Shown here: positions 13,882 to 64,000 of the stretch, piece by piece
Position numbering within the stretch: the first letter of the stretch is position 1
Layout: each line of letters opens with the position of its first letter
DNA from: Selaginella moellendorffii
Lineage: Eukaryota > Plantae > Lycopodiophyta
Assembly: GCF_000143415.4 (NCBI RefSeq)
Contig: NW_003314282.1
Span: forward strand, 825,374-889,373
DNA: 64,000 bases
Reading direction: 5' to 3'
The notes under the pieces: model-generated
Told to the model about the DNA's origin: nothing
Databases searched by the model: none
What the model saw: the letters and a program-made list of their open reading frames with translations, nothing else
Program-made: the position numbers and the translations under genes

Positions 13882-14415
13882 TCACTTCTAAAGTCCATCC
13901 TTTGATTCAATCCATTCTCTCCAAGCAAAGTTCTATCCAAACTATAGTACAAATCTCACCTGGCGTTGGAGCAAGCGCCGGCGCAACGGCATCTGAAGCA
14001 GCCAGAGTTACACAAGAAAAAAAAAAAAAAACAAAGAGAAAGCAGTTTAGTGCCACTAAGCAAACCGATTAGCTACAAACAAACCTTTGCAGCGCTCCGG
14101 CCGGGCGTCGCCACAGAGCGACGGGAGCTGGAGGGGCTGGGTTCGATTCATGGCGCGCGCGAGCTGGTCGAGGAACACGCACAGGCAGCGCGGTGGCTCT
14201 TTTTGCGTGGAGTTTGCGACGGCGGAGCAGCAGCGCGCGGATGGCTCCCTGCTTTGTTGCTCGAGGAAAGCATGGCAAAGCATGGCAAAGCATGGCATCA
14301 ACACAGATCCGGCATCGCTGCTGGCGCACTTGGCTGGCTCGCGCTGCGCGGCCGTCGGATGGAGGAGATCCAACGCCAGCAAGAGCGCCAGCACCAGCAT
14401 TCCCCTCCTTGGCAT
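13716..14415 (-). CDS. Non-specific lipid-transfer protein-like (8-Cys), probably GPI-anchored LTPG type; 3' exon uncertain
   Basis: Signal peptide plus C-C-CC-CXC-C-C pattern (14083-14415); phase-1 intron to a small AVAPALAPTP exon (~13960-13992); hydrophobic tail downstream. Confidence 0.7.
13827..13879. repeat. (GA)n microsatellite
   Basis: Visible tandem array. Confidence 0.97.
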
Positions 14416-24100: not shown

Positions 24101-25313
24101 AGGCCACAAAGAAATGCAGCAATCTGAGAAAGGATAGATTAGAACTGCAAAAACATCAAATATAATTTTTTTTTACCTGCATTGTCTTACCAAGGCCCAT
24201 GTCGTCTCCCAGAATTCCTCCTCGACGCTGAAGATGCAATCTCCACAGCCAACGTAGACCTTCATGTTGATGCTCATAGAGGATAGAAGAAACATTCCCG
24301 GGGAGGACGAATTTCCACCTTCCTTCACCAAGTACTAGATCGAGAGCTGACTTGTTGGACTTCTTAGATAAACTTGAAGAAGAAATCTCGAGAACGTCAT
24401 CAGTGGCCCCCTTGGACACCTCCGCGAGAGACGATGTAGCTGATCCATAGTCTGCACTGTTGGCGGACTCGAAAGTGTCTCTAGATGTCGTTGATATTTG
24501 TTGCTTCATCGTCAGCGACATGGAACCGAGTTTTTCGCACAGAAGATAGTCAACACCGTCGTCAGTTTCTAGCGAGTTACTGTCGTTGGAATCGCTTGGC
24601 AGCTCTACCAGTTGAGCAGCAGCAAGTTCAGAGGCCATTGGAAGGGGTGAATCACGCTCCTTGACCTTGCAAAGCCTTCTCCTTCCCGGCACTTTGGTGC
24701 TGTTTGCCTGTGACTGCTGTGGTCTGACGGGTTCTTCACTGGCAGTAGAAACTTAAAAAAAAAAACAAACTTATAAGCTTCCAACTTTCTACGAAGGCAA
24801 AAATGAAGTGTACCTGAGGAGGTGGTTTCCTTCCTGACAGTGGGAGCTGCATATAAACATTAAGTTAGCCTCTACAAAGAATGAAAAGCAAGCCTACCTG
24901 ACGATGTCAAGGATTCATCCAAAACTACATAAGAAAAAAAATTAAAAAGCTTCCTAGAACGAAAGACACAAGCAAGCTTACCTGATGTATCTGACTGCTT
25001 TGGTCTGGTGGATTCCTCCTTGGCAGTAGAAACTACATGGCACACAAAATTAGTTTTTCTTTCTACGATGAGAGCGAACTTAAGGCCTACCTGAGGACGG
25101 GCATTCTTCATCTGAGACTGAGTCTTCAAACAATCGAGCATCGTTCTCTCCCACGCCCGGCCAAAACATACTTCCAGCATCCTGTTCCTCATCCAACGGC
25201 GCTTTCCTACCGCGAGCGGCCCTGGCGTCAGCTATCTTCTCCAATAGAGCCGTCCTCTCCGCATTCTTGAGATTCCGCTTGCTCCGAACGAATTGGACAT
25301 CGTCATCATCCAT
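21137..25313 (-). CDS. CHR24: SNF2-family chromatin remodeller CHR24 (ERCC6L/PICH-like)
   Basis: GGILGDDMGLGKTMQ, WDYVILDE, ISGTPIQN, LKKICDHP, LLTSQVGGLGLTLTAADRVVIVDPAWNP, HDLLFS, C-terminal LPDGGE. Confidence 0.9.
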
Positions 25314-25649
25314 AGAACCAGCTGAACAGTCACAGCCGGAGCGATCGACACCCTGGAGAGAAATGCCGCACAAACCCTCAATCGAAATTCACCGCAATGC
25401 CCTTGGCGCGCCGCCTAATCACTGCGCCTCCATCGATCAATCGCGGCACCCTAAAGCCCTAGACATGCTCTTCCCTCCAAAATACAAAATATAAACCCTA
25501 GCTTATTTGGCACGTGTACATGCTCTCGCATATTATAAGTATATCCTTTTTCGCATATACCCTGGTATCTCACACATCTTGACATTGAAGATATTCATCC
25601 AAATAGAAAATTTCAAGGATTTCTAAGTTTCAGTGGAAGTATGTATGGG

Positions 25650-28600
25650 TCAAAACTTGTTGATCTCATTCACTTCTCGTGTTCCCTTCCAGCAGTTCTT
25701 TCGAGCCTTATGTGCAGCATAGCTGTAAGAAACCGGAAATACCTTAGCAAGGATGCGAAACCAGAACAAAGATGCTTGCCTAGAGTAGAAGCTGGCGATG
25801 GCAGAGACTTCTTCATCGGCGTCAGGACGTAATTCTGGAGCAGCCTTGGAAAACAAAAGGTCGTGGTGACTCACGCCTGCGATTCCTTGGCGTTCCAGGA
25901 ACTTGATATGCTTGGCGAGTTCTTCGTCTCTGCCACAATGGTGTTACAATGCGGGGAATAAAGCTCATGCAAAAAACATACACTTCGAACTGACTGGCGT
26001 GCTCTTCATACAGCTGCTGCTGCGTAGGAGAAATGTCGAAGCCAGTCTTCGGAACAGTCAATAATTCTCGGAAGTCCTGCGAGCGCAAAAAAATGTGAGT
26101 GATCGGTCCAATGATACAATTCCTGCTGGGAAAAGTACCGGAATTGTTCTGCACGCTCGGTAGCAATTTTCATGAGGCCTCCTTTGAAAACCTGAAAACA
26201 GATGGGAGGAATAGAAAACATTGTACAGTTTGGCTCACCTGCCTCCTGTAAACCTTCTCCTCCATTGTGCCGGATGTTATCAGGCGGTAAACTATGATGT
26301 CCCGACGTTGCCCAATGCGATATGCTCGATCTACACTTTGGTTGTCCTTGCTACAAAATATACTTGTTCAGAATCACAAAAAGAGAAAAGGAAAGAAAAC
26401 CCAACGTGAAAAAACTTAAAAAGTGAACCCAAACCTGGGATTCCAAACCGGATCTACAATGACAACTCTATCTGCAACTGTCAACGTGAGTCCCAATCCT
26501 CCAACTTGTGATGTCAACAAAAATATGGAAACTCTACAGCCATCACTCTGGAAATCCTGCAATAGAATAAGTCAGTCAAGCTAAATCCATCCGTGGCTTA
26601 CCTCAACGATTCTCTGACGCTCAGAAACTTTTGTTTTGCCGTCTATACGACAAAAGCTACCTCCGTTTTGTTATCTCTTCCTGAAAGAAACAACATCAGA
26701 TAAGGCAGTCAAAATATGTGACGCACCTGGATAATGTCAAGCATCTTAAGAGCCTGAGCGAAGACCAATGTTCTATGGCCCTCCTGCACAAGATTTTCCT
26801 TCAACAAAAATAAAAAATTTATAAGTTGTATAACTTCAGCACCAACTTACCAGAAGAGCCATAAGAAATACGACCTTGCACGAGTGTTTATTTCCATCAC
26901 TGTCCGGCTCAGATTCTGCTGAACCAGGAGGAAGTGGCCGCAGTGTCGGTACTATCTAAATACCCGACCACATCGTCGATCTCCTGCTTTATCAAAAGCC
27001 AAGGGTGGTCACAAATTCTTTTAAGAATCTGTAATTCGGACATGCTCATTAAGAACATCTTGAATAAGATTTCAAATACCGTCAATGCTAATAAGACGTC
27101 TGAACCTGCCAGGAATTCGTGGGCTGTTTCACTTCTCAAAAGCGCCATATACATCTGACGCTGAGAAAATCACGAGATAGTAGACAGAAAAAATACAACA
27201 TCTTACGTACCTGTCGTTGAGACAATCGCAGCCATACAATTATGTCATTCTTCTTTGCAAGCTGCTGTGTGCCTTGACCCATACTCGGAAAAACATCCTT
27301 CTTCAGGCGACGCAAAAAGTACAGAGCAATTTTGTCTTGAAGCTTCTGCAAAACCAGCTCAAAAACAGGATAACTTGATTATTGTCATACCTGCGCAACT
27401 CTTTTGAATGTAATTTGCATCCTTATTATTACCACTCAAAATCGCAGCTTCGTATTCCCACTTGAATCTGCAAGTTAAGCATAAGAGCCAGCGAAGGCAC
27501 ATTAAAAAACGCACTCTTTTCGGTCGCCTAGAAGTTCAGGGTAGCAAAAGTGGAAAAGGGCCCACATTTCCTGGAAAGAGGTGTTTAGTCGAAAAAATTT
27601 ATCAGAGGACTTCCGTATCAATCTCACTCGCAAATTGTTCTGTATGGGAGTGCCACTTAAAATGATTCTATGAGCGCTCGGAATTTCCTTTAAACTTTCT
27701 GCACGTTGAGTTGAGGGATCTTTTATCAGGTGGCCCTGCACGTTTCACGTGAATGAGAAGCACGGCAAAGAAAAATCGTCTCACCTCGTCAAGAATGACG
27801 TAGTCCCATGTCACTTGATCACCATCAAACCTACCTTTCAAAGCATTGGTATTGTGGGGAACAATATCATATGTGGTAAGCAGCACTCCTCCGGCCTGTT
27901 GCAATGGCAACAATGATATGCACGGATGTAGATATCAGAGTGAGTATACCTGCAATATATGATGCAAGTTCGATTTCCGGACGTTTACAGACAACGTCGA
28001 GTAGCTGTAAGACAAAAGAAAGGAGTAGCATATGTCACTTGAATGATACTCCGTTCGCTTACTCTTCAACTTTCCTTCCAAGTCGCACCACATTGAGCTC
28101 CTTGCTCCAGTTAGGTATTAATGTCTTCGGCACCACAATGAGCGCCCTCTTAATAAGCTGAGAGTGAAACAGACCACAAAGAAATGCAGCAATCTGAGAA
28201 AGGATAGATTAGAACTGCAGAAGCATAAAAAAGAAAAGGTTTTTACCTGCATTGTTTTGCCAAGGCCCATGTCGTCTCCCAGAATTCCTCCTCGACGCTG
28301 AAGATGCAATCTCCACAGCCAACGTAGACCTTCATGTTGATGCTCATAGAGGACAGAAGCAACATTCCCGGGGAGGATGAATTTCCACCTTCCTTCACCA
28401 AGTACTAGATCGGACGCGGACTTGTTGGATGATCCATAACCTGCGGTATTGGCGGCGAAAGTATCTCTAGACACTTGCTGCTTCATCGTCAGCGACACGG
28501 AACCAAGTTTTTCGCACAGAAGATAGCCAACACCGTCGAAACGTTCGTTGGAAACGCTTGGCAGCTCTACCAGTTGAGCAGGACCAAGTTCCGAGGCCAT

Positions 28601-29074
28601 TCGAAGAGGTGAATCATCCCTGGCAGTACAAACTACAGAAAAAAAACAGGAAGAAAAAAAAAAACATATGAGCTTCCAGCTTTCAACGAAGACAAAACTA
28701 AAATGTACCTGAGGAAGCGGTTTCCCCCCTGACAGTGGGAGCTGCATTGATAGAAATCATGTCAGCCTTCTACAAAGAATGAAAATGAAGCTTACCTGAC
28801 GACTCATCCCAAACTACACTTGAAAAGAAAGTTAAAGGCAAGTTTTGTTGTTTGTCTTTTTTTTTCTTTTTTTTTCTTTAAAAACATACGAAAAGTAGTT
28901 TTTCTTTGTATGCTGAGAGCACACTTGCTACGAAAGAAAACCAAGCCTACCTGAGGACGCGCCTTCATCCCAGTCGTCAAACAATCGTGCATCGTTCTCC
29001 CAACACATATTTCCGGCATCCTGCTCCAATGGCGCTTGCCTACCGCGAGCAGCCTGGCCTCAGCCATCATCCAT
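25650..29074 (-). pseudogene. Tandem duplicate of CHR24, pseudogenised
   Basis: Colinear exons and introns with 21440-25313. Frameshift near 26936 (stop at 26909), 2-nt deletion near 26658 creating TAG, GT-to-GA donor loss near 26121, C-terminal exons missing. Confidence 0.85.
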
Positions 29075-40031: not shown

Positions 40032-43000
40032 TTAATATAAAGCTTCTTTATATACAGTATTGATGAATGTTGATGAATTAAATGGAATTAAATGGCCTTA
40101 TGTATGATTTGTGTCAACTCAAATTGCAAGTTGTTGTGGTGATGTGCATCTTGAGAGTGCAACATAGAACTGCCCATGGGTAAAGACTGGCTGGGGTAAA
40201 TAGATGCCTACATGATCAAATGTTTAACCTTGGTATTTTGAAATTGTTAAACAGTATCCAAGACGAAAAGGAAATTGTTTTCGAGACATATGAAATGGAA
40301 CATTTGAATTAAAGGGTGTTAAGTTAATGCATGGGATAAAAGTTCTAGTACCTTTAAATTCACCTGTAATTATTTCACAGTCCAAAACTTTAGGTGAAGT
40401 TCTTTTGACCATTAATCAAGTTCCATCGCATAATCCAATTGTTGGAGATATATTTCTCAGAAAAATAATTATACAACCTTCTTTTAGTATTAATTTGTGT
40501 GGTGGTAGTCTAGAGGGAGTGATAGAGTTTAGAAATTTAATTGGGAATTCTTCAGGGTGTTCAACATCAACAGAGTCAATGCTAGTATAAATTTGAGGTG
40601 GACTTGGTAATTGAGAGATGATGTTGTTATTAATTGGAAATGTATCATCATTGAGAGGTGTTAAAATGGCTCTATTTACTACAATTTGAACATTTGAAAT
40701 ATCTTCAATACATGGGAATATAAAATCAGTAATAGAGGTACTTCTAATTAGTTCTAAAGGAAGAAGGATAGAATCAAGTGGTAAAATAGGGTTTTGTGTG
40801 TAATTATTTCCATCACCGACTTTCAATAGTCATTCTGCCCAGTTTGGGAACTTGGGGCCAAGCTGCATATTTGTTTGCAATTGAAACTTTCTAAATAGAT
40901 TCCATAGACTATTCATTTTTACAGATGTGGAAACAATCTGTGCTTAATAACTGTGTGGGACAATTATTAATGTTTGACGGAAGTCACCACTTGTAACAAT
41001 AACAATGCCACCGAATGGAGAATTATTATGTTTTAAGTCTTGTAGGCAACGGTCGACAGCTGAAAAAGCAAATGTATGAACCATACTAATTTCATCCCAA
41101 ATAAACACTTGTATTGCTTTTGTAGATCTACCAGCACTGTTATTATGTGTTAACTTAGAAACAGATGTATCATTAATTGGAACTGGTAACTTAAAAATTG
41201 TATGGGATGTTTATCCATTGTGTAGTAATGTGCTTGCAATACCTGTCCATGCCATACAAACCACTTTTTTATTGTAGAACTCAAAATATTTTACTATTGT
41301 ATTTAATAAATATGTTTTGCCAGTACCACCAGGGCCATCAATAAAAATAAAACGGTTGGTATCGGTTGGGCACTCGACAATATTAACAATTTCATTGAAT
41401 ATAGCTAATTGTTCAACATTCAAGTTTCTAATATAATGGTAAATTTCTGTATATAAATGGTTGCAATTTAGTATTGGTTGAATAGAGGTATATAGGATTG
41501 GGATAGGTAAATTGTATGGTTGATTTGTTTTACCATGTATTTTCATTCTTGAGTTAATGTCTATTAGAGCAAGTTTATATCTGTATACAATATTTGTTTT
41601 ACCAAAATCTTCAGAGAGTTGATCCTTAAAAACATCCCAAAGATATGGTGGGTTTTGTGGATTGCAAAAAATACATATGAAAGTAAAGAGTTGACGCAAT
41701 TGTGTAGGCATCTGAAAATTGCATGTTTTTTGTAAACAATTATACCACTCATTATTATCATCAACAAGACCCATAACAACAGCAGCTTATTGAAAGCTTT
41801 GGTAAGTTATATCATTAATTGTTTTAATATTGTCGAAGGATGTCGCTCCTCTTTTATGAAGAAGAATAATACGTAAGTGGTACAATTCGGTATTTAGAGG
41901 AGATACTGAGTATAGTCGAGGAATAACCTTTTTCTTTTTTTGACGTTGCCAAACATTAGCAGATTTATTGAAAACATAATGTAAAGGTATTTCAACGTAA
42001 GTATATTATCTTGCATTCAGATCATGAATATTGAGTTCAAACCATTTTGCTAGCATTGTTCCATTACATGCTGCTCTTTGCAAGGCATTGTGCTCCAAAC
42101 CTTTTGTAAAATACACATTTGGAAGTCAGGAAGATGTACGGGCAGACGTATTATAGGGTGTGAGCATCCATGCATTTTAAATTTAAATATCCTCCAAATA
42201 GCTTCTGGTGTTGAAATGTATCGGGTATTTATAAAATTCATGATTTCATCCCAGTTTAATATGTTTGCAAATTGAGTAGCTGTTTGGATTTGAATGGTTG
42301 CACAATCATATCCTTTATAAACATATTGAAAAAGATACTTAATACTTTTAATTGATGCACATATTTCTATATTTATATGGGTTTTGTATTTTTTACATAA
42401 ATATTTATTATGGTACAATCCATCTATTATCAATTGGAACATCATTTTTAAGGAAGGTGCAATCATTGTTTGGCCTAAAATATTCTGGGTACCTATCCAC
42501 ACAATATGTAGTTCCGTCATTGAAGTTTTTGGGATAGTTTTTGGAGCATTTTTTGTTTTCCATACATGGACTTTGAGGATTTAGTAATCCACATGGACCA
42601 TGTATCATATGTGATGTGATTATTTCAAATAGTTTGGGCTCTGATAAAGGGTCAGGTAATTGAGCAGATACATATTGGTCAATAGTGTCACGGTCTTTAA
42701 TTTTACTTTCATTATCTAATATGCCTAGGAAATGACAATGTGGCAAACCTCTTTTTTGGAACTCAATGACATATATAAATGCAATATTCCAAAGATATTA
42801 TTTTGTGTAATATCATGGAGAAAATATTTTAGCTTCATGTTAAAAACCCTAGCAACTAAATCAGGTCGGTCTTCAAGTCCTTCATTAGGGTGCAGATTTT
42901 GTAATATCTCAAGCCATTTAGGGTTGCAAGTGAAAGTTATAAAAATATCAGGTTTTGAGTGTTTTGATAGCATCTTGGTAATTTTGTTGCATAGCTCTTG

Positions 43001-44313
43001 GGTTTCTTGTAAAAGTAGAAGGTAAAATAACAATTTTTCCTTGTTGAGCATTTGCATTAGCAATTTTGCCAGCAACATAATCCATCAAACCTGTATAAAA
43101 ATCAACTCTTATATTTTTTTGATTAGATCTATAGTATTGTAAATTGTTGCTTTCAATTTTAACATAGGCATCTACAATATATTGTTGGGTGAGTTTTCCA
43201 GCATGTAAAATTTGGTCATATGTAACTGTAGAGGTTGATAATGTTGAATCTCTTTTGGACAAATGATAGGCATAATATTGAAGGAGTGTTACATGCTTGT
43301 TAGAAGAAAGCTTGTCATGCTAGGCTCTATCTTCATGTGGAAAAAGCAATGGATAAACCATAGGATCACAATTACCATTTAAAATAGATATATGTTGTGG
43401 TTCTGATGATTTTGGATGAATGCATATTTCACAGTCAAAAGGTGGCACACCATCTTCACTTTGGAAAACTATTGCAACATCATTAGTTTGTGGAGTATTA
43501 TATCGACGATGGTCTGTGCCTTCATTTTTAATAAGCATATAAACTCCATGTAAATTGCTACCAGAAATAATAGTTCTTGAAAGATTTTCCCGTTCCAATT
43601 CATACATCATTCTAAAAGCTTGTGCATATAGATTAATATATCGAAGTATCATATCTAGTTGAAGTAGTAAATTATAATCACAATTAATGTTAAAAGGGTT
43701 TTGTTTTCTGATATCAGTAGCCTCATTGGAGTCTAGTATTTACAATTGACTATAGCTTGGATTTTGATGTATTGAAGGATGTTGTGGCATAGATTTGTCC
43801 ATGAATTCTATAGTAGTATGGACCATGACCTGTAAAAGTATTAATGCTAGCTCCCATAAACGCAAAAGCAAGTGCACTATTATATTGTCTTATATTACTC
43901 TTGAAATTAGAGTGTTTGTGTGAGTTATATATAGAATACAGAAAAGGTGGTAATGGAAGTATTAGAGGCAGGTAGACCTGTCCACTCTGACAACAAATAG
44001 ACTTCTTCTCATCAGCAAAGTGTGAGGTATGACAATACTTACAAATATATGATAAGGGACCTATATTCAATGTCAAAACAGATGTATCATTATATAGGTA
44101 ATTGCTAGCAAATGTGCTGCGAATCTGAGGTGAAGGGCAAATAGGAATTGGAAATTGACTGCTGTTCAGTGTGATTATTAAGATTTTTTTGATGTCGATA
44201 CTCTGTATCCTCTTGAATATTACTGTTGTAAAAGCTATATGTATGCTGGTGCTGGTTAGTGTCTTCAACATTATCATTGTACGTGGAATGTGTATGTCTG
44301 TGTCGAATAGCAT
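40032..44313 (-). pseudogene. Helitron Rep/Pif1-helicase (RepHel), fragmented
   Basis: CC.SGQV, NIRQYNSALAF, DPMVYPLLFP, PDIFITFTCNPKW, PHCH (HUH), MIHGPCG, KYLFQYVYKG, GPGGTGKTYL, RKQFPFRLGYCLTISK; split by stops and frameshifts. Confidence 0.93.
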
Positions 44314-50215: not shown

Positions 50216-50509
50216 ATTCTCAAACACGTGGTTAAAGAAATAACCCCTTTACAGTTACCCCCTATCGGACAGCTGTGATTGGCTAGATCTGGCGGCCCAC
50301 AAAGTTCGGCATTTGCTCCTTATCTACTATAGTAGTAGATGTTCCTGTTGCTTATTTTAACTTCTAAGTAAATAACCACAAAAACATAAACTATTTATTT
50401 TAAGAGAAATTTTATTTTATTTTAACAAGTCCAAAATAGTAATCTGTTGCCTAGTGTGTTCCACTGCTATTAATATAGATTAGCTGTAAGTTTAAATCTA
50501 AAAATCATA

Positions 50510-51382
50510 ATGATTTATAGCTATATTACAGTATATGTTTTATTTTTGCTGATAATATTTAGTCATAACAGCTTAGCAGCTCTTATTGTAAGAGATAATC
50601 GTAGTGATCTCTCATTATCTACAAAACTATTAATTTTAAGAGCAATAAGAGAGGCTATAGATCAAATAGATGTTAATGTTCCATTTTACACTGGATATAC
50701 AAGATATTATCAGAATTATGGAATTAGGATATTATTATCTAGTATGAATTCGGAAATATCTCCTCCTAACTATCAACTTCTTTGTAGTTTATTTCCAAAT
50801 TACACTACTCCATGGGAAGGTTTGACATTAAGAGCTGAATTTCAAAGAATTTATAATAATTACATCCGTATTGATGATGACATAATTCACTATGGGATTA
50901 CAGAATATATTTTAGGGACACTAAGTATTGAATATGTAGTTGAAAATACTTATATTCTAAGTATACAAAAGATAAACTATTTAAGTTATTTAAATCAGCA
51001 TCAAGATTGTATGTGGAGGCGTACATGTATTAAAAGTACATCTAATTTTTCAAACTTCTCTAATTTATTAAGTGGAGAATTTCTGCAATCTTTAAATAAA
51101 AAATACTCATTACATGTTCAACTAAATTGTAATGTTATATTATATAAAGAAACTATTACCATATGGCAGACTAATACAGAAAATAAAGGAACTAATTGTT
51201 ATTTAACAATGCAAGTTGATGGTAATCTAGTATTATATGATGAATTTCATAATGTTATATGGTCATATAATATTTATTGGAAAAATATTTGGAAACCAAT
51301 GGCACTATGCGTTGAAGATACTGGTCATATAAGTGTTTCTAATATTGTTGAGCAAACTTCAATCTGGAGGGTTCCAAAATAA
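50510..51382 (+). CDS. Secreted protein: signal peptide, unknown ~150-aa domain, C-terminal bulb-type (GNA) lectin domain
   Basis: 290-aa intronless ORF with a hydrophobic N-terminus; LLSGEFL, QLNCNVILY, IWQTNT, LTMQVDGNLVLYD..VIWS. Confidence 0.72.
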   Translation: MIYSYITVYVLFLLIIFSHNSLAALIVRDNRSDLSLSTKLLILRAIREAIDQIDVNVPFYTGYTRYYQNYGIRILLSSMNSEISPPNYQLLCSLFPNYTTPWEGLTLRAEFQRIYNNYIRIDDDIIHYGITEYILGTLSIEYVVENTYILSIQKINYLSYLNQHQDCMWRRTCIKSTSNFSNFSNLLSGEFLQSLNKKYSLHVQLNCNVILYKETITIWQTNTENKGTNCYLTMQVDGNLVLYDEFHNVIWSYNIYWKNIWKPMALCVEDTGHISVSNIVEQTSIWRVPK

Positions 51383-54700: not shown

Positions 54701-55415
54701 AGGTGTGGAAGCACCAACAATGGGTTGTAGAACTTGACAACTATGAAACAACTAAATGCTCTATTTCGTTAAAGTGGGATTTATTCAGTAAAATGGGACT
54801 AGGTACAAATTTTCAAGTATTTGAAAATGACGTGAAATTATATGTTTTTTGTCCAGGGGCTAGACATATCTGGGGCATGGTGACTAGCGCGGTGACTTTA
54901 TGTCCAGACTGAGTCCATCTGGTTGTATAATAAATCTCATTGTCAAGGTGAACAAGCCGAATCTGAAGCTAAAGAAGAGCGATGGCATGCGCGCACACAC
55001 TATTTGTTTGTTCATTGAGCGTGTGGTGAGCTTTCCAAGATGAACGTCATTCCTATTAGCCAGACATATAACTTAATAGTGAGAACATTTAGATATTATT
55101 CAATGTTATCTTTTTCTAACGAATCTAATTGTGAAGGTGTAGCAAGAGGCATTGCTAGTCTGGAGAAGTCATTTAACTCATTTGACCCTTAGTGTATTTT
55201 AATGAAACTAAATAACATTCATATTATTAAGGAATTTCTCTAGTACCTTTTTTTTACGACATAGAGGCTTGCATTTCTTTCAAAGGTGATTTAGTAAAAG
55301 GCCTGAGGGCACATGCCATTCTATTTCTCAGACCGATATTAAGATATACTAGTGCAAAGGGAAAAAGGTATTTGGTGATCAAGTAAATGGCATGAGGGCA
55401 CACGCCATTATAAGC

Positions 55416-55673
55416 CTAAGCGCTAGTGGACACCTCCTTTTTGGTACTCTCAGCGGTACTATCATCCTTCTCCGGGTCAGTTGTTTTGCTTTGGATTGTT
55501 GTTTCTGACGTTACTGGGGCATTCTCGATAGTTGTTAATGTTGCCGTTTGTTCAGAAAAATGATCACCTGGAGTATAGTACGGGGAGTTTGGAAGACTTA
55601 TATATTCTACATCTTCACCTATCTCCTTCTCCGTCTCCTTTTCTGCCTCACTTACAGATTTTGTGCTTGCCAT
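55416..55673 (-). CDS. Small acidic Ser/Thr/Glu-rich ORF (85 aa) inside the transposon-like unit
   Basis: MASTKSVSEAEKETEKEIGEDVEYISLPNSPYYTP...; open frame in a stop-rich context; no recognisable homology. Confidence 0.35.
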   Translation of the reverse strand: MASTKSVSEAEKETEKEIGEDVEYISLPNSPYYTPGDHFSEQTATLTTIENAPVTSETTIQSKTTDPEKDDSTAESTKKEVSTSA

Positions 55674-56342
55674 GAGAACACTCTTCACCCTAAAATATGG
55701 AGTTCGTTGTGTTATAAAAGGAAACCAACACACTCGCTGCAAGGGAATGATGGTACATAAAGCACGTAAGCCCACAATATGGGTTTATGTGCCATTAATA
55801 TGGGCCACACGCCATATTATTAGATTTATGCACGTGTGATTGGTAAATGCATATGTCACATCATCTTTGTTTTACCTCACACACTATATCAGGCCTAATG
55901 AACCATATCACATGTGCACACATGCTATATATATGGAGAAGTATTATGCAAGGATAGAAATTCAATGCATGATTGTGGAGAGCAATGGCATGAAGCCACA
56001 TGCTAAATAACATTTTAGAGAAAGAATTAAAATAAAAACATGCAAACAGTACTAAGTGGACCAAGACTTAGAAGTGCACAATTGAATGAGGTATTTCTAA
56101 TAAATACTTCACTCACCTCATATAGGAATGGCTACCACTCTCAAATGGCGTATCGCCTCATGCCATCACCTCGCAATTTGTTATAACAATCCGATGAATT
56201 CATATTCGGCTTGTTCACCTTGAACTTTAAGTAAGATTTGCTAGAACAACTAAGAATTTATACTTGTTATTTGTATCATCTCACCTAGGAATGGCGTAAG
56301 GCCACATGCCATCACGCCTCCTCTGATTCAGATTCGGATTGT

Positions 56343-59300
56343 TCACCTTGAAATAAAATACATTAGAAACTTAGTAAAGGAATATTCATGAATCTCACCT
56401 TGAACCCGGGTTATGAATGCTCTTGCTGCATCTCTTGCATGGTCTGGCAAGGTGATGGTGGCACTCTGCTTCCACATCCAACCATGCACAACATTATCCA
56501 CCGATATGCTCATGCTGGGATCCCTTGGATTCAGCACCCATCTCTTTTCTAGGCAATCGTTCGTATATCCGGAACTTGGCTTGAACCACTCCACAGTTAC
56601 ATTGAAGGAGTTAGTTTCCGCGTCCTCCTCTGCATCAGTGATGCAGTGCCCCACCCATATCATTTGTTTTTTATTACTGGGTCTGACAAGCACGACCATT
56701 CCTTTGCAGACCTGTACTGGATTGAATGCTGAATCCGGCTTCTTGTTCCTCGGCCCACAATAGTGATCCTCAACATCGTTATCTGTCACTGCATTTCCAG
56801 AGGACATTGTTCCGCTACTATCTGGTGCTCTGGGTTCTAGCCAAAAGGACTCTTCCAATTCTTCATATACAACCGGCCCATTTTGGATAGCAGATATAAT
56901 CTTCTCCCAGTATTCGAGCAAAGGCTTGCACCTCTGAAAATAGGATTCTCCACCAAACACCAACCCCCTCTTCCAGAAGGCAATATGCTGTCTAATCCCG
57001 GCCACTATACTTTCCTGGTCTTTGAGTCCATCCGGGTGCATCGGCCGTGGGGAACCCTGAGGAATCATAGGTTCCCCAGTTATGGGATCTCTCTTGAAGA
57101 GTTCAATGCCGTCCACTGGCAGCCACACTGTGTCCCATTCTCTCATCTTGTACCTCATCACTGGAGCACCGTCACACATGCTGAAATGAAACTGAAGAGG
57201 CTTGGAGTGGCCAATCAGCGTTTCGGATCCGTCCCTGATGTAGCCTCTTACAAACCCCTTAAAGTCTGGAACCTCTGTCAGAAGTGCAGCTTCAACAGTG
57301 CCTTTGATGCAATTTTGGAATTCATCGTAGAGTTGTGGGAGGGTGAGGACATTGGATCGCCGGAGGGACTCTGCCAGGTGACTGAACATGGCATCGACGT
57401 CTTCATGAGTGTGCCCAACCATGAGAAAGCCAAGTGTAACCGTTTCAAATATGCCTTTGGCAACAAGCATCGCCAAGTACGCGAAGACGTACATGTTTTT
57501 GTTCTCACTGCCAGCATTGTTTGTTTGGAGCAGAAGATGGGGTGGAAGGCCACATCGGCCGCAAGAACTTCCTTGAGATTCTGCTTCGTTTGGATGAGGC
57601 TGTGCATTCACCGGGCGACCAGCCTCGTCGGAATGGCATGAGGCCTCACGTGATAACCCTACAATCTGACGGCCAACATATTCACTGGGATGGCATGGGG
57701 CCCCACGCGATACTGCAAGCCTTTGCTCCTCCTCCAGCTGAACCCTGTATGGGGTTCGATCGACAAGGGCCTTATGCAAGGGTTGGCCGTTCAGCTCAGT
57801 CTGCGCACTTTGCAGAGACCTTAAGTGTTTTGCTAGGGACGCAATCATCATGTTTGCACCCCCGCCACCCCATAGAGGTACAAAGAAGTTCCCATAGTTC
57901 TGGGCACCATGCCCATGAGCGATTATGCCAAACAGAGACACAGGCAGCTGCATGGATGAAGAGATTGCCTTGGGGGCAGGATTGAGTCGAGGTAAGCACG
58001 TCTTTTTCTGGTCCATTTTGTCGTGGATGATGCAGAGGTAAGAGTCAGGTCTCTCCATGGAGAGAATCCTGTTATGATAATATGCAGTCCTGCAGCTTCT
58101 CTGCTCGATGTTGTGGTCGAGCCGCCTTCTAACCAACGTCTCTCGCTCTTGAGCGCTGCAAGAATTCTTCGACAAAGCCATTTTGATAGCAGTGCACTCG
58201 TCACACTTTGAAAAGCTGGAGTACTTTCCTATACTCACATCCCTGAACCTGTTGCTCCACAATCTACTAAATCTAGATTGGCTCAGCTTCCTGTAGCCAT
58301 TACTCTGGAGTTCCCGATTCACATCTTCCAATATGGCCCCCTTGGTATACATGGAAGGGAGAACTCGTTGGGTGTCTCGTGTTCCATCTTCCAAGAGGCG
58401 GGTTTTATGTGGTTGCTGCTCGCTACATGTCTCGACAAACCTCTTGAAGATTGCCTCTCCATATACAACATGACCCCTGGTTTTGTGCGTACCGTCGTTC
58501 CCATGGACTGCCTGTTGAACCTTTTGTTCCTCGAACTCAGTTTTGATTCTGTAGAATGTGGTTCGAGGGACTCCATAAATGATTCTCCATGCCTTCATGC
58601 AGACCAAACCCCTCTGGAAGACCATGCCCCCCACCTGATGTTCTGAAGCATCAACAAATGACCGTAATGCCTCATACACAAAATTGCAAGCTGCCTTCCA
58701 GGACAATGTTTTGTATCTTGCTCTCTCCTCTTCAATAGCATCCCAATCAGCATGTTGACAGCACCTCCTCTTGCAACAAGCAACTGTCGAGACCATTCGA
58801 ACCTCCATCGCCATTTTCTGCCTTTTCGGTTCGTTGCTCAGATCCCTTTGGCTGCGCTTTAGGAAGGTGTACTTTCTTTTCCCATGAAGAGATGTTCTGT
58901 CATCAGTTGTAGTGGTGTCTGATTGTGAATCCTTCACATTCTCAAACACTAAGTGCCTCAATTTCCACCGCACAATGCTTCCAATAGTCAGACTGTTTTC
59001 TTCTGTGTCAACAACCTCTAAAATCGCAACTCCAATATCATCCCAGCCCAATTCTTGATTAGCAACCGCATCTCTTGGATCGACAACTGTGGCTAAGCCC
59101 TCAGCTACCACCTCCCCCTCGGGGTTGTTTAGAAACACCTTCGCCTGAATCCATGTAGCACGGTTCTTAAGATCCACGGAGGGAACATGCGTCGCACTTG
59201 CGCTGTCCCCAACATCTGCTTTCTTCTGAAGATTTTTCAAGGCAACAACAACATTTACCCCGACGACCATCTCTCCTCGTTCAATAGCGACCACATTCCT

Positions 59301-59453
59301 ATCGAAGACAGTCTCTATTGATACAGCAGCATTGCCTTCCCCAAGCCTTTGACAGTGTATAACAAAGTTCCGATCCATAGACACAAGGGTCCTTTTTGCA
59401 ACTCTCTTCCCACCATTCAAAATGTAAACCTTTTCCCCAACCCTGAAGGCCAT
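56343..59453 (-). CDS. Transposase-like protein (RNase H/DDE-like core, two N-terminal SH3/Tnp1-like repeats, C-terminal Tudor/BAH-like module)
   Basis: 1036-aa ORF; CCKRRC, VCMKAWRIIYG, FSKCDEC, IIHDKMDQKKT, LQTNNAGSENKN, FLMVGHTHEDVDAMFS; C-terminal LVRP..IWVG..VTVEWF. Confidence 0.8.
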   Translation of the reverse strand: MAFRVGEKVYILNGGKRVAKRTLVSMDRNFVIHCQRLGEGNAAVSIETVFDRNVVAIERGEMVVGVNVVVALKNLQKKADVGDSASATHVPSVDLKNRATWIQAKVFLNNPEGEVVAEGLATVVDPRDAVANQELGWDDIGVAILEVVDTEENSLTIGSIVRWKLRHLVFENVKDSQSDTTTTDDRTSLHGKRKYTFLKRSQRDLSNEPKRQKMAMEVRMVSTVACCKRRCCQHADWDAIEEERARYKTLSWKAACNFVYEALRSFVDASEHQVGGMVFQRGLVCMKAWRIIYGVPRTTFYRIKTEFEEQKVQQAVHGNDGTHKTRGHVVYGEAIFKRFVETCSEQQPHKTRLLEDGTRDTQRVLPSMYTKGAILEDVNRELQSNGYRKLSQSRFSRLWSNRFRDVSIGKYSSFSKCDECTAIKMALSKNSCSAQERETLVRRRLDHNIEQRSCRTAYYHNRILSMERPDSYLCIIHDKMDQKKTCLPRLNPAPKAISSSMQLPVSLFGIIAHGHGAQNYGNFFVPLWGGGGANMMIASLAKHLRSLQSAQTELNGQPLHKALVDRTPYRVQLEEEQRLAVSRGAPCHPSEYVGRQIVGLSREASCHSDEAGRPVNAQPHPNEAESQGSSCGRCGLPPHLLLQTNNAGSENKNMYVFAYLAMLVAKGIFETVTLGFLMVGHTHEDVDAMFSHLAESLRRSNVLTLPQLYDEFQNCIKGTVEAALLTEVPDFKGFVRGYIRDGSETLIGHSKPLQFHFSMCDGAPVMRYKMREWDTVWLPVDGIELFKRDPITGEPMIPQGSPRPMHPDGLKDQESIVAGIRQHIAFWKRGLVFGGESYFQRCKPLLEYWEKIISAIQNGPVVYEELEESFWLEPRAPDSSGTMSSGNAVTDNDVEDHYCGPRNKKPDSAFNPVQVCKGMVVLVRPSNKKQMIWVGHCITDAEEDAETNSFNVTVEWFKPSSGYTNDCLEKRWVLNPRDPSMSISVDNVVHGWMWKQSATITLPDHARDAARAFITRVQGEIHEYSFTKFLMYFISR

Positions 59454-60750
59454 TCTGAAAGTGCAGAAAAGAAATTAAGACCATACAAAAAATGATTGGA
59501 GAATGGCCTAAATCATAACATACCAAACAACCTCAATAGCATGAGGCCACATGCCATTATTCAAACATGCTATTGACACCCACGTGAAATTTCGCATTCA
59601 CAAAATTGGCATGAGCCCTCATGCCATCTTGATATACACACAGCTGCAGGCAAGTAAAAACATACATGACAATACGCTAGCCATGAAATTGCAAGGGCCC
59701 AAGATGGCATGTGGCCTCATGCCATTTCTAAATGTGGTCCTAAGCCATTCCATGGTGAACATACCAGGAAGCACAAGTGCCGAATATCAAGAGGAAGCGG
59801 TAGCCACACCAAAGACAGTGCCGCTCGCAACACCGCAACTAGAGGCGGTAGTTCTACAGCAACACCGCAACTGCTCGTAGCGCCGCTCGCACAAACTGCC
59901 ACTCGCATAAACTGCCGCTCGCAATGGCGCTCGCAATGCCGCAACCGCTCATAGACGCATAAACCACAGCCCACAACGCCGCTTACACAAGCAGCGCTCA
60001 CTGCGCTCAGCGGAACCAAGAACACGGCACACAAAAATGATAGACCTAGGAATGAGTTCGAGAATTCAAAAATAACACACGCTTGAACGTCACATCAAAT
60101 CCTCTGACAAACCAGATCTTATGACTCCTCTGACAAATTTCAAACTGAGTAGCTTCTAGACTTTGCTGTCGGAGGTTGAACTTTGTCACATCATGTCCTT
60201 GCCTCGATCCAGCTGTGCCATGTCAGTGATTCGAACTTTGCCATGCCATGTCAGCGATCCGCGCCAAGATTATTCGCCGTGTAAAGGAATAATTATGCTG
60301 TGTGTGTACGTCCATTTATGGCAATATAAGGCCACACGCCATTCAAAGAATAATGCTAGTCGAGCATTTTTTGGTGCATTTTTGGGTTCAAAATTGCATG
60401 AGCCCACACGCTATAAAGTTTACCTGTACCAAAAATAGAAACAGCTTTATTTACTTGGGAATTTAAGTGGTTGAGGCATTTTTAAACTTACAAACACATG
60501 CCCTACTTACATTCCTTTGGTTGCTTAAAATTCAAAAATATTATAAACCTTTCTTTTTGCATTTTCAATGTTTTCAATTATGGTTTTTGATTTTCGTAGG
60601 ACCAGCCTAGTAATCTATTTGCATCCCGTCATGTTTATAGCTAACTTTCGTTTGTCCCCTTCGCTAGCCTGAGATACATCTGCTCGGCATCTGCCTCTTA
60701 CAGCATTTGCCCAGAAAGGGCATCTTTCTTCACGCAGCATTTGCCACATG

Positions 60751-60783
60751 TTTAGGGTTTAGGGTTTAGGGTTTAGGGTTTAG
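60751..60783 (+). repeat. Interstitial plant telomeric repeat (TTTAGGG)4 + TTTAG
   Basis: Directly visible. Confidence 0.95.
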
Positions 60784-62380
60784 CAATTCAGTAGCTTGAT
60801 AAACATGCAAATACAGAACTTGATGCAAAATCCTTTGATATGTCACAATGCCCCTAGGACCATAAACACATTTCAATAGAGAGGGTCCTTTCATTTCATA
60901 ACTCCTTACGTAGATCTTGGTGAAACCAGAGTTAGTGAAGTTAGTTTCTTGTGATCCCGCATCTGATTGTGATGTCCCTTTGCAGTTTCGATGGAAAGGT
61001 CAATGCACACCAAACTGTAAAATCTTGGAGCAAAATAACGGTCGGATCTATGGCAAATGCCCCTGAAACATTATAAGGCTCGTGTGGTCTCATGTGGTGT
61101 CCGATCGAGATGCTTCTTTGCAGGGTCATCAAGAAAGACATTGTATACCATTCTGTAAAATCTAGTTGCGATCTAACAGTTGGATCTCCAGAAAACTCAA
61201 AAAAATCTCGCGCGTGTCAGAATATTCTAGGAATATACTCCTATGTGCCCCTGAAAATGGCATGCAGCCCCACGCCATTCAAGAGATAACACCAGATGAC
61301 GCCGAGAATTTTTTGGTGCATTTTTTGGGTTCAAAATTGCATGAGCCCACACGCTATAAAGTTTATTTTTGCCAAATAGAGAAAAGTTTATCTGTGTCAT
61401 GTGAGGTAGTTACAGTCCTTTGTGCTCGGCATCTACCTCTTGCAGCATTTGCACTGAAAGGGAATTTTTCTCCATTCAGCATTTGGCCCTGAAAATGGCA
61501 TGCGCCCACACGCCATTCAAGGAATAACGCCACAGGACGCCTGGATTTTTGGGTTTAAAATGTTTAGGGTTTTTTGGGTTTTTTCAAAATATTTTGGGTC
61601 CAACGTTTTTTGGGTTTCTTTGGTTCAAAATTGCATGAGCCCACACGCTATAATATTGATTTGAGAGAAAAATAGAAACAAATAGAATTTCTTTATTTAG
61701 CTGAACATCTGCCATTTTTGGAAATACAAGATGCTTTGGAATATCCAATCATGCATGGTATAAATATAGCGAGGTTATTAAATGATATCCCAATCATGAT
61801 CTTTCTTTTGGATTTCGCGTGCATGCAGTCCGAGGAATGATGACGTTGCGGATTTCTTTTGGATTTTGCGTGCTTGCATGCGCGCAGCAATCCAGAAATT
61901 AATGGTGGCGCCCAAGTCCGAGGAATGATGACGTGGCGGGATTACCAACCGTTGTGACATTTCGCGCGTGTGAGGTTAGGTTTTGCATTTTGCTTTGTAC
62001 TCGCGCTCGCACACTCGCGCTCGCGCTCGCATCACACTCGCGCTCCCGCTCGCATCGCGCTCCCACTCGCGATCACGCTCACTTCTCTACAGGTTTCTCG
62101 TGTGCATCGGCGTCCACTCGCGCTTGCATCACACTCGCGCTCGCATCGCGCTCGTGTGCATCGGCGTCCACTTCAAGACACACCCAGTTTGTAACTTCGC
62201 CACCAACTCCGCCGCCCACTCCGCCACCCACACGCAGCCCACTTGGCGTCCCGGGAGATTTCAACACCACTCTCCAACTGTAAGTGGCAGAGTAGCCTTG
62301 CTGCTACGATCCGCTGCACACACAGTGCACATTCGCCAGCGAGTCCGGCCTCGATTGTCACGGCCTCCATTCGGCTTCAA

Positions 62381-64000
62381 ATGGTAAGTCTTTTAGACCA
62401 AGTAGAAAATGGCATGAGGCCACATGCCATTCAGTAGCAACATTGGCATGCACCGATTGGGCTCTCGAGTGCAGTCCGGTTACAGATGGCGTGTAGCCTC
62501 ACGCCATCTTAGGATGCAGCCTCAAGACATCTGATGCAGTGGTGAATGGCGTGTGGCCTCACGTTATTTCCAGCTGCTAGCTTTTCATCTGTCAGCTCTA
62601 ATTGTTGTGCATTTCTAAACAGGCGAGGAATTGCGTTCTTCTTCCAGCCACTGTCAATGTGGATGCAGAGAAGGGGGAGGAGCTCACCAGTTGGACTTTC
62701 GGGATGGAAGGCGAGGATCTGATGCTGTACAACACAGATGGTGGGAGAAAAGAATGCATGGGGATCCTCATCCAAGTGACAGACACTCCATGCAGTTCCA
62801 TGCAAGAATATGGACTGGCACTTGTGGTAGAGACAGCGTCCGCCTTCAAGATCCACCTTGCACATCCTAGCGGCTTCCCGGAGGGGGGCAGCGGCTATGA
62901 GGAATTCCTAGAGGGAGCTAGGGAGAGGTTGTCCAGGAGGCCCACAATTTCAAAGACGCTGCGGGTCTATGAAGATCACATGGAATCCACGGACCTCACC
63001 TACGGCGATGTTCAAAAACTATATTCCAACATTGAGCCGTTGAGAGTGCCTCCAGTTTGTGAAGCGAAGGGGAAGGGGGTCGATCTAGAAAATACCCCGA
63101 AGCAGAAAAGGGTGGTCAAGCTCAAGCCGATGTCCGACTCTGCTGCTCCAAAAAAGAAGCTACTCGGTGATGCCATTGCCTCGGGTTCGAACACTACACC
63201 CACCAAAAAGAAGAGCCGCAAAGAGCAGAAAGAGCAAGAAGAGGCAGCAAAAATCGTCGCAAATAATAGTACTTGTTACTATTCCAACAAAGTATATACA
63301 ATTGACGTGAGCCGTATCGAGATCCAAAGCAAATACAACCACAGGCTAGTATCTGATGAGTGGGTGGAGAAACTGGAGCAGAAGATGCTGGCAAGTCCAG
63401 TAACACCCGACATCGCAGACGTGATCCCCTACTACCGAACAATGAAGGGCGAGACGAGGTTTCCAGACTTGATCAATAGGAAGGTGTTGGACGATCAGAA
63501 CATCCGGTTCTATGCCGTCTCCGGGCAGCATTCTAGCTTGGCGATGCAACAGATAGTTGTGGATATTATGGTGGGCGAGGAGGTGAAGAAAGTCTTCAAG
63601 ACAAGAGTTGTCCGCCTGATAAAAGGCAACTCGCCCCTCCGATCTATCATATACATCTCCCACGCGCAGAATGTCAAGCAAGAAACGTGCTACAAATCGG
63701 GTCTGCACGAGACATTGGCACGAACACGGAAGCTCTGGGTTCAACTGAAGAAGCCACAAAAACCAGGACAAGGACGTGCACTAGCAACTAGCGCCTGGCA
63801 GGTAAGCCTCGTTGCATGTGGCATAGCATGTGGCCTCACGCCATTTCCATTGCAGGAATTCTCGAGTCTTCTCTCGAAAACACTGGGGGTCAATGACACA
63901 CTCAGCATCCATAACATTCTACTCGCGACAAAAGTTGTTTTTGACAAATGGGTAGATGTGCTGAGGAGGTACCATGACGGGGAGTTGCTAAACTCAATGG
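62381..64000 (+). CDS. ParB/Srx-like domain protein, 3'-incomplete (exons 62381-62383, 62623-63801, 63856 to >64000)
   Basis: ATG|GTAAGT micro-exon; frame open from 62623 to the window end (hence absent from the ORF track); Lys-rich NLS-like linker; IDVSRI..YNHR..DEWVEKLEQKM...FYAVSGQHSSLAM...ISHAQNVKQE. Confidence 0.75.

What the first reader, a model, noticed from the sequence alone, without database searches (positions are those of the whole stretch)
62381..64000. Unlisted ORF encoding a ParB/Srx-like domain
The frame is open from 62623 to the window edge and is therefore missed by the ORF track. Residues at 63295-63690 (YTIDVSRIEIQSKYNHRLVSDEWVEKLEQKML...FYAVSGQHSSLAM...ISHAQNVKQE) align by eye with Spo0J-type IxIxxL..YQPR..DEALAELKESVL...YDIVAGERRFRAA...IALLENLQRE. 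GQHS (63523-63534) replaces GxxR and resembles the DGQHR variants. A Lys-rich linker suggests nuclear import, and spliceosomal introns show it is not bacterial contamination. The missing C-terminus might hold an HTH or an effector such as a DNA methyltransferase-like domain (speculative).
Basis: partly seen in the sequence, partly recalled or inferred. Interest (0 to 1): 0.85.

Follow-up and report, generated by a model that had tools for sequence, protein, structure and literature searches.

The report
Plant transposon's ParB-fold helper gene
This is the front part of a second gene on a repeated plant jumping gene; its protein is predicted to have the fold of bacterial ParB DNA clamps and likely binds a 22-letter palindrome found only inside that element, likely to shield it from host silencing, a design already described in algae.

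Summary
The open frame and the ParB/Srx fold are real. A model built from 14 homologues (pLDDT 78) matches Noc, ParB, PadC and sulfiredoxin. The gene lies head-to-head with a 1,036-aa DUF7869 (Sola-like DDD) transposase in a multi-copy element. A 22-bp palindrome occurs 20 times in the last 9.15 kb, never in the other 54.85 kb or in 20 shuffles. It sits in both predicted introns of this gene. The ParB arginine patch is replaced by an invariant GQH, so a classic CTP clamp is not assured. The C-terminus lies outside the window; one liverwort homologue has a weak, probably degenerate, N4/N6-methylase domain there. This copy's transposase has Asn at the middle catalytic Asp. Best reading: a self-recognition, anti-silencing accessory protein; binding and function are inferred only. 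The design is in print for algae (Ectocarpus Sola1-1, Bostrychia PAG3), and this scan noted it in seven other windows. Splicing and expression are not shown. Verdict: new member of a known kind.

The parts
62381..62383 (+). predicted ATG micro-exon (exon 1)
   Evidence: ATG followed by a GT donor; no transcript evidence
62384..62622 (+). predicted intron 1, 239 nt, with three palindromes (62409, 62486, 62546)
   Evidence: GT..AG; sites
62623..63801 (+). exon 2, 393 codons: N-terminal region of unknown fold, basic linker, ParB/Srx-fold domain
63100..63222 (+). Lys/Arg-rich linker, possible nuclear localisation signal (inferred)
   Evidence: homologues also carry basic linkers
63262..63708 (+). 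ParB/Srx-fold domain (model residues 12-160)
   Evidence: AlphaFold2 pLDDT 77.9; Foldseek and VIA-align matches
63508..63543 (+). conserved F-x-A-[IV]-S-G-Q-H-S-x-x-A motif at the place of the ParB phosphate-binding arginine patch (correspondence by eye)
   Evidence: F94, G99, Q100, H101, A105 invariant in 15 of 15 rows
63802..63855 (+). predicted intron 2, 54 nt, in frame, with one palindrome (63823)
   Evidence: GT..AG; 18-residue gap against Riccia P0009
63856..64000 (+). start of exon 3; the gene runs off the window
   Evidence: aligns after the gap with P0009 residues 371-417; a 2,910-nt contig of run X4 continues beyond the edge
56343..59453 (-). DUF7869 (Sola-like DDD) transposase, 1,036 aa, open frame; Asn at the middle candidate catalytic Asp (57521-57519)
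   Evidence: PF25273 E 1.2e-40; 32-35% identity to three metagenome relatives, the two that cover the site have Asp
59455..59764 (-). candidate 5'-UTR intron of the transposase with three palindromes (59536, 59606, 59704), mirroring intron 1 of the ParB-like gene
   Evidence: GT..AG read from sequence; no transcript evidence
54982..63844 (.). array of 21 copies of a 22-bp palindrome, ATGGCRTG-N6-CAYGCCAT; 19 outside coding sequence, 2 in a variable insert of the transposase
54928..56365 (.). second repeated motif near the probable left end: 54928-54989 inverted against 56305-56365, a third partial copy at 56198-56224
54850..64000 (.). approximate extent of the element in the window; left end not defined, right end outside
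   Evidence: range of the palindrome array; terminal repeats and target duplication not testable

Best explanation
The ORF is the 5' part of an accessory gene of a multi-copy DNA transposon; its product is predicted to carry a ParB/Srx-fold domain and likely binds the element's own 22-bp palindromes, likely to keep the element's two genes active against host silencing. Shown here: the open frame, its head-to-head position beside a DUF7869 transposase, homologues in a liverwort and in unnamed assemblies, the element-restricted palindrome, and many near-identical copies in raw data. Predicted: the fold. Inferred, step by step: (1) splicing of the two introns and nuclear import through the basic linker; (2) a dimer reads the two-fold symmetric site, as ParB and Noc do with their palindromes, through helices downstream of the ParB/Srx domain; (3) the conserved pocket binds a nucleotide that gates loading or release, not necessarily CTP, because both arginines of the patch are replaced; (4) a beta-class amino-methylase-fold domain beyond the window edge, active or dead, marks or shields the DNA near the sites, which cluster in promoters and first introns of both genes. 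This copy is probably non-autonomous: its transposase has Asn for the middle Asp, while the accessory frame is intact as far as the window goes.
For: Fold: the top 10 Foldseek PDB rows are Noc, ParB, PadC and Srx, best E 6.6e-5. The top 10 of 48,161 VIA-align chains are ParB/Srx-fold proteins; best PadC Z 9.4, rmsd 2.9, 98 aligned; KorB Z 8.7, rmsd 2.5, 92 aligned. The Atlas model of the Riccia homologue also lands on ParB_N clusters, TM about 0.5. Element: DUF7869 neighbour. 8,373 contigs of run X1 laid on 1,756 bases, 5,557 at 99% or more, and 6 of 15 listed differences at intermediate share. 14 runs with only 2-4 million letters hold 68-72% of the words (one sample). Palindrome: 20 sites at <=2 arm mismatches in 54851-64000, 0 in 1-54850, 0 in 20 of 20 shuffles; 19 of 21 outside coding sequence, 4 in this gene's introns. 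Two of three related transposase loci carry two copies each of a different palindrome in their flanks, as expected for family-specific sites. Host silencing acts on this copy: 7 of 9 private differences are C>T or G>A, 6 of the 7 in CG or CHG. Methylase domain in homologue P0019: PF01555 E 5.8e-4, M.RsrI E 0.18, Atlas PF01555 clusters at 0.90 and 0.88. Precedents: PMC12477816, bioRxiv 2025.02.11.637652, VANC21.
Against: No binding, nucleotide or methylation data exist for any protein of this kind in the passages I read. The C-terminus of this gene was not seen. Only 1 of 14 homologues is long enough to show a methylase-like domain; its Pfam score (20.3 bits) is under the cut-off (26.7), it is an automatic gene model, and by eye it lacks the DPPY/SPPY-type motif. 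The equivalent of ParB R104 is Ser in 13 of 15 rows and Arg in none; R103A and R104A lose CTP binding in Caulobacter ParB. No sequence profile links the domain to ParB. Only 1 Foldseek PDB match reaches E<=0.001, and Z 8-9 is near the level that the tool calls common. None of the three transposase loci showed a ParB-like gene, but they are 2-4 kb contigs with little flank. The two palindrome pairs in those loci have no shuffle control. Intron 1 folds strongly as RNA (z -4.9), so a role as RNA hairpins is open.
Confidence: 0.5

Rival explanations
1. The palindromes are binding sites of the transposase, or of a host factor, and the ParB-like protein helps transposition in another way, such as bridging the ends or tethering the excised element.
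For: Repeated internal motifs are transposase sites in several DNA transposon families (recalled). Sites are dense near the probable left end, 7 of 21 in 54982-56312. A shared fold shows no function.
Against: The sites run through 9 kb and sit in both introns of the ParB-like gene and in the candidate first intron of the transposase, far from any end. A second, different repeat lies near the left end and could serve the transposase. Red-algal Plavaka elements put inverted-repeat arrays beside their ParB-like gene.
Confidence: 0.2
2. The protein binds the palindromes, but its effector is not a methylase: another domain (as the oxygenase of Bostrychia PAG3), a dead methylase fold used for DNA binding, or none; it may act as a plain transcriptional regulator of the element.
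For: The C-terminus is unseen. PAG3 pairs ParB with a 2OG oxygenase. The Riccia methylase-like domain is weak and looks degenerate.
Against: The only full-length homologue in hand has a methylase-like domain, and exon 3 aligns with the Riccia sequence that follows the ParB domain. The Ectocarpus Sola1 gene is ParB plus N4/N6 methylase.
Confidence: 0.15
3. The gene is passive or decaying cargo, and the palindromes are by-products or RNA hairpins without a protein partner.
For: No spliced contig was seen. The copy carries deamination-type changes and a changed transposase site. Intron 1 folds as RNA at z -4.9.
Against: The frame is open for 466 codons with no indel listed across the laid contigs. 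Seven residues are invariant across homologues at 22-29% identity. The palindromes also lie in the spacer and downstream of the transposase, keep a fixed 6-base spacer and avoid this gene's exons.
Confidence: 0.1
4. The gene is a single-copy host gene, a domesticated ParB/Srx enzyme that only happens to lie beside a transposon.
For: It has spliceosomal introns and an intact frame. The right end of the element was not seen.
Against: Thousands of near-identical contigs with polymorphic sites cover the coding sequence itself, and the element's palindrome is inside its introns.
Confidence: 0.05

Closest known systems
Sola1-1_Ec32 accessory gene of Ectocarpus (PMC12477816; passages and supplement rows seen; figures not seen)
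   Same: DNA transposon with a second gene on the strand opposite to the transposase, coding a ParB-like domain; authors propose self-binding and self-modification.
   Different: Brown alga, 21.5 kb, 1,104-aa protein with a predicted N4/N6 methylase. No occurrence of 'palindrom' in its main text. Here: a land plant, an element-wide palindrome array, methylase domain not seen. Sequences were not compared.
PAG3 of Bostrychia Plavaka (EnSpm) transposons (bioRxiv 10.1101/2025.02.11.637652; passages seen; supplements closed)
   Same: ParB-like accessory gene beside arrays of inverted repeats, proposed to bind its own transposon.
   Different: Other transposase superfamily; ParB fused to a 2OG oxygenase, methylase in a separate gene (PAG2); repeats in tandem arrays, here dispersed through introns and spacer.
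VANC21 of Arabidopsis VANDAL21 (PMC5735166; abstract and section 8 read)
   Same: Element-encoded protein that binds a family-specific motif in non-coding parts of its own element and counters silencing; the functional model for my reading.
   Different: No ParB fold is claimed for it in what I read; 9-base non-palindromic motif in same-direction arrays; experimentally shown there, only inferred here.
Bacterial ParB/Noc/KorB/PadC CTP-binding domains and sulfiredoxin (PMC8367383 passages)
   Same: Same fold over about 90-110 residues; R39 and N148 may match ParB R60 and N136 (by eye; R in 10 and N in 13 of 15 rows); palindromic sites.
   Different: 9-19% identity; G-Q-H-S in place of the E102-R103-R104 patch; about 25 extra residues before the motif; no ParA partner; HTH not seen.
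DUF3723 (PF12520) genes of fungal Starships (bioRxiv 10.1101/2021.12.13.472469; passages seen)
   Same: The Atlas puts fungal clusters with DUF3723 (31% and 47% of members) nearest to the Riccia homologue's domain, score 0.95; both ride on mobile elements.
   Different: A lead only: no Pfam DUF3723 match for any of 15 members at E<=1; that paper has 0 occurrences of 'ParB'.

Membership tests
ParB/Srx fold superfamily | Core alpha/beta fold | tested here: met
   Model pLDDT 77.9; top Foldseek and VIA-align rows are ParB/Srx-fold chains, PadC Z 9.4, rmsd 2.9, 98 aligned
ParB/Srx fold superfamily | Sequence match to a ParB/Srx profile | tested here: inconclusive
   No match for the window protein or 14 homologue rows in Pfam, NCBIfam, PHROGs or PADLOC; too divergent for profiles
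ParB CTPase clamps (Spo0J/Noc/KorB) | Arginine patch (E102-R103-R104 in Caulobacter) | tested here: not met
   Q-H-S at these places; Q and H in 15 of 15, S in 13 of 15, R in none; correspondence by eye; mutants
ParB CTPase clamps (Spo0J/Noc/KorB) | HTH DNA-binding domain and C-terminal dimer domain after the N-domain | not testable with these tools
   Only 48 codons of exon 3 lie in the window; no genome held
ParB CTPase clamps (Spo0J/Noc/KorB) | CTP binding, hydrolysis and spreading from a palindromic site | not testable with these tools
   Needs biochemistry
DGQHR-domain proteins (DndB-like; motif recalled) | D-G-Q-H-R motif and profile match | tested here: not met
   S-G-Q-H-S in most rows, D in 1 of 15, R in 0 of 15; no NCBIfam or PADLOC model of this kind matched
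Sola1 DNA transposons (label recalled and taken from earlier notes) | DDD transposase of the Sola type | tested here: inconclusive
   DUF7869 E 1.2e-40; three acidic motifs shared with relatives, but the middle one is Asn in this copy; no Sola reference sequence was available and the defining paper was not held
Sola1 DNA transposons (label recalled and taken from earlier notes) | Terminal inverted repeats and 4-bp target duplication (4 bp for Sola1-1_Ec32) | not testable with these tools
   Right end lies outside the window; left end not defined
Sola1 DNA transposons (label recalled and taken from earlier notes) | Dispersed, multi-copy | tested here: met
   8,373 contigs of run X1 on 62245-64000 with polymorphic sites; only the accessory gene was laid, and no copy number can be read from this
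Transposon ParB-methylase accessory genes (Sola1-1_Ec32 type) | ParB-like gene on the strand opposite to the transposase | tested here: met
Transposon ParB-methylase accessory genes (Sola1-1_Ec32 type) | C-terminal N4/N6 methylase domain | tested here: inconclusive
   Outside the window; weak match in 1 of 14 homologues

The most novel reading that the evidence does not exclude
Plant and algal DNA transposons and fungal Starships (DUF3723) share one family of eukaryotic ParB-like proteins that load as nucleotide-gated clamps at parS-like palindromes inside their own element and spread along it, giving a ParB-parS system inside the nucleus that marks self and resists silencing; each family would co-evolve its own palindrome.
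Probability: 0.15. Interest if true: 0.82.

Novelty: new member of a known kind. Interest (0 to 1): 0.42.

Why it matters
If the reading holds, land-plant transposons use a bacterial-type self-recognition module against host silencing, in parallel to the unrelated VANC system of Arabidopsis. This element is a good test case: the candidate site is long, sharply defined, element-specific and present 21 times, so binding can be assayed directly. The idea itself is published for brown and red algae. My searches found no paper on land-plant cases (open-access library only; ref. 50 of PMC12477816 was not read).

Tried and rejected
No genome is held for the window, so the C-terminus and right end could not be read. 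Word-based protein searches found nothing: window domain against 336-2000 aa, alignment A1 against 1863-5000 aa, a length range I had not intended, alignment A3 against 584-2000 aa; weak evidence. Single-sequence fold failed, pLDDT 31. Scans for the ParB-like domain gave no confirmed locus in viral (43 pattern matches), metagenome (52) or prokaryote genome contigs (39). The transposase gave none in viral or prokaryote contigs, and 3 of 201 matches in metagenomes. The palindrome has 0 exact matches in viral contigs. tblastn against phages and plasmids gave only E>=0.6; PDB sequence search with A1 gave only low-complexity matches. Expression: no RNA holder listed; the run guessed to be RNA (X19) has contigs that cross the intron borders unspliced and may be DNA, and X20 laid nothing, so no conclusion. 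Reads were laid on 62245-64000 only, so the transposase Asn and the left end were not checked against other copies. Homodimer prediction: no verdict, score 0.00, alignment not used. Exon 3 alone does not align to P0009 by BLASTP, and the N-terminal 202 aa match P0003 only at E 0.04. Rfam found nothing above gathering score in 61800-62700. P0001, the top phmmer hit, was dropped as a repeat-driven match outside the domain. Earlier-finding look-ups by sequence and place were empty. Bacterial contamination rejected: GT-AG introns, plant homologues, PPR and DYW-PPR neighbours. Supplements of the Bostrychia preprint and the sequence supplements of the Ectocarpus paper were not seen and may bear on homology.

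Full report
Observation. Two GT..AG introns are plausible. Intron 2 is 54 nt and in frame, so the open frame alone does not prove it. BLASTP against the Riccia homologue P0009 opens an 18-residue gap there, and 4 of 14 homologue ORFs end at W-K-V(-G) at the same place. No spliced contig was seen in the four runs laid. The host is a land plant: PPR and DYW-PPR genes lie in the window. A seed-free plant is my inference from the homologues and gene style.

Homologues and fold. Pfam names nothing. phmmer over 1.84 billion representatives gave 13 hits; 12 cover the domain at 25-33% identity. Of 10 looked up, two clusters are Riccia sorocarpa proteins, seven are unnamed assembly ORFs and one is an unrelated yeast protein. 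Seven residues are invariant in 15 rows: F94, G99, Q100, H101, A105, R126, R167. With this alignment AlphaFold2 reached pLDDT 77.9; without it, 31. Foldseek ranks Noc first (E 6.6e-5, the only match at E<=0.001), then ParB, PadC and sulfiredoxin. VIA-align over 48,161 chains ranks PadC (Z 9.4, rmsd 2.9, 98 aligned), KorB (8.7), a Pnob8-like ParB-N domain (8.2), SerK-type serine kinase (8.0) and sulfiredoxin (7.4) at the top, with unrelated chains at Z 2.4 or less. Viral matches are ParB-like domains, some fused to methylases. The fold claim therefore holds. By eye G-Q-H-S stands where Caulobacter ParB has E102-R103-R104; losing either arginine there abolishes or weakens CTP binding. So this is a ParB/Srx-fold protein, not a member of the CTP-clamp family by motif.

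Context. A 1,036-aa ORF on the minus strand (56343-59453) points away from the gene and carries DUF7869 (E 1.2e-40). Three metagenome contigs encode relatives at 32-35% identity with shared HDKMD, QLDN..ENKN and GHTHED motifs. I read these as the acidic triad of a Sola-type transposase; that label is recalled and taken from earlier notes, not tested against a Sola reference. This copy has Asn at the middle position, where both relatives that cover it have Asp. The gene is multi-copy: 8,373 contigs of run X1 lie on 1,756 bases, 5,557 at 99% identity or more, with six sites at intermediate share. X1 may be the source sample. Of 9 places where the window differs from nearly all X1 depth, 7 are C>T or G>A in the window copy and 6 of these are in CG or CHG context. 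That is the mark of host cytosine methylation; none of these changes hits an invariant residue.

The palindrome. ATGGCRTG-N6-CAYGCCAT occurs 21 times (full consensus, up to 5 mismatches) between 54982 and 63844 and nowhere else. With arms only and up to 2 mismatches there are 20 sites in the last 9,150 bases, 0 in the first 54,850 and 0 in each of 20 dinucleotide shuffles. At 3 mismatches one outside hit appears, in a tandem repeat at 14277. The consensus was derived from these repeats. Nineteen of 21 sites are outside coding sequence: three in intron 1, one in intron 2, three in a candidate first intron of the transposase, the rest in the spacer and downstream; two lie in a variable insert of the transposase. 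The variable R and Y positions are the two halves of a CpG in each arm. Two related loci carry two copies each of other palindromes beside their transposase (L002 36 and 92; L001 3620 and 3664; no shuffle control), and none of the three carries this one.

The missing end. It lies outside the window and no genome is held. The one long homologue, Riccia P0019, has a weak beta-class methylase signal after the ParB domain: PF01555 E 5.8e-4, under the cut-off, M.RsrI E 0.18, Atlas PF01555 clusters at 0.90. By eye it keeps the SAM-binding motif and lacks the usual catalytic one. For this gene a methylase-fold domain is likely (about 0.65) but unseen.

Mechanism. I commit to a self-recognition, anti-silencing accessory protein (0.5). 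A dimer would bind the two-fold sites clustered at the promoters and first introns of both genes; the pocket would bind a nucleotide that gates loading; a methylase-fold domain would mark or shield nearby DNA. Only the anatomy, the copy evidence and the predicted fold are results; all functional steps are inferred. Rivals: transposase sites (0.2), binding with another or no effector (0.15), passive cargo (0.1), host gene (0.05).

What is known. PMC12477816 describes a 1,104-aa ParB-like plus N4/N6 methylase gene on the strand opposite to the transposase in Ectocarpus Sola1-1 and proposes self-binding and self-modification (passages and supplement rows). The Bostrychia preprint describes PAG3, a ParB-like gene beside inverted-repeat arrays (passages). 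VANC21 is the tested example of motif-guided anti-silencing (abstract and one section). PMC4738411 (passages) lists ParB-HTH-fused methylases in chlorophytes and chytrids, not on land-plant transposons in the passages shown; the Marchantia 4mC preprint (passages) concerns host enzymes. PMC9033089 and PMC4455052 (passages) only list Sola. This scan noted the same layout in seven other windows, and three notes link DUF3723 to a ParB fold; these are unchecked notes, not support. My own Atlas search puts DUF3723-bearing fungal clusters nearest to the Riccia domain, a lead only. I found no paper on land-plant cases, within an open-access library.

Verdict. Observation confirmed; interpretation right on fold, incomplete on context. 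New member of a known, still untested kind. Interest 0.42.

Noticed in passing
window 57521-57519 (minus strand): The transposase has Asn where two relatives have the middle candidate catalytic Asp; the codon context fits deamination of a methylated CHG. This copy is probably unable to move itself.
   Followed up: partly
L002 36-57 and 92-113; L001 3620-3635 and 3664-3679: Related transposase loci carry two copies each of their own, different palindromes in the flanks.
   Followed up: partly
P0009 residues 170-365 (homologue): Nearest Atlas clusters by features are fungal, two with DUF3723 in 31% and 47% of members, a conserved Starship gene.
   Followed up: partly
window 59500-62380 (spacer between the two genes): A short plant telomere-type tandem array lies in the spacer, along with three partly repeated blocks of 60-120 bases. 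One X1 contig has telomere-like letters in place of 62757-62842.
   Followed up: no
window 62279-62316: A 38-base stretch upstream of the ATG is shared with many contigs of runs X4 and X19 whose flanks differ; the flanks look to me like the 3' end of large-subunit rRNA (recalled); Rfam gave no match.
   Followed up: partly
window 62000-62243 and 59717-59942: Both genes have low-complexity C/G-rich repeats in their probable 5' leaders.
   Followed up: no
window 41214-44313: AT-rich fragmented ORFs with a PIF1 helicase match: probably a Helitron remnant.
   Followed up: partly
window 50474-51379: AT-rich 302-aa ORF with a weak bulb-type lectin match (E 5e-6, under cut-off).
   Followed up: no
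window 22580-28756: Two partial, similar SNF2-type helicase gene starts (24159-24752 and 28121-28756), a local duplication.
   Followed up: no
P0019 residues 936-1055 (homologue): The Riccia gene model ends in a NIF/FCP1-like phosphatase domain; part of the cargo protein or a fused gene model.
   Followed up: no
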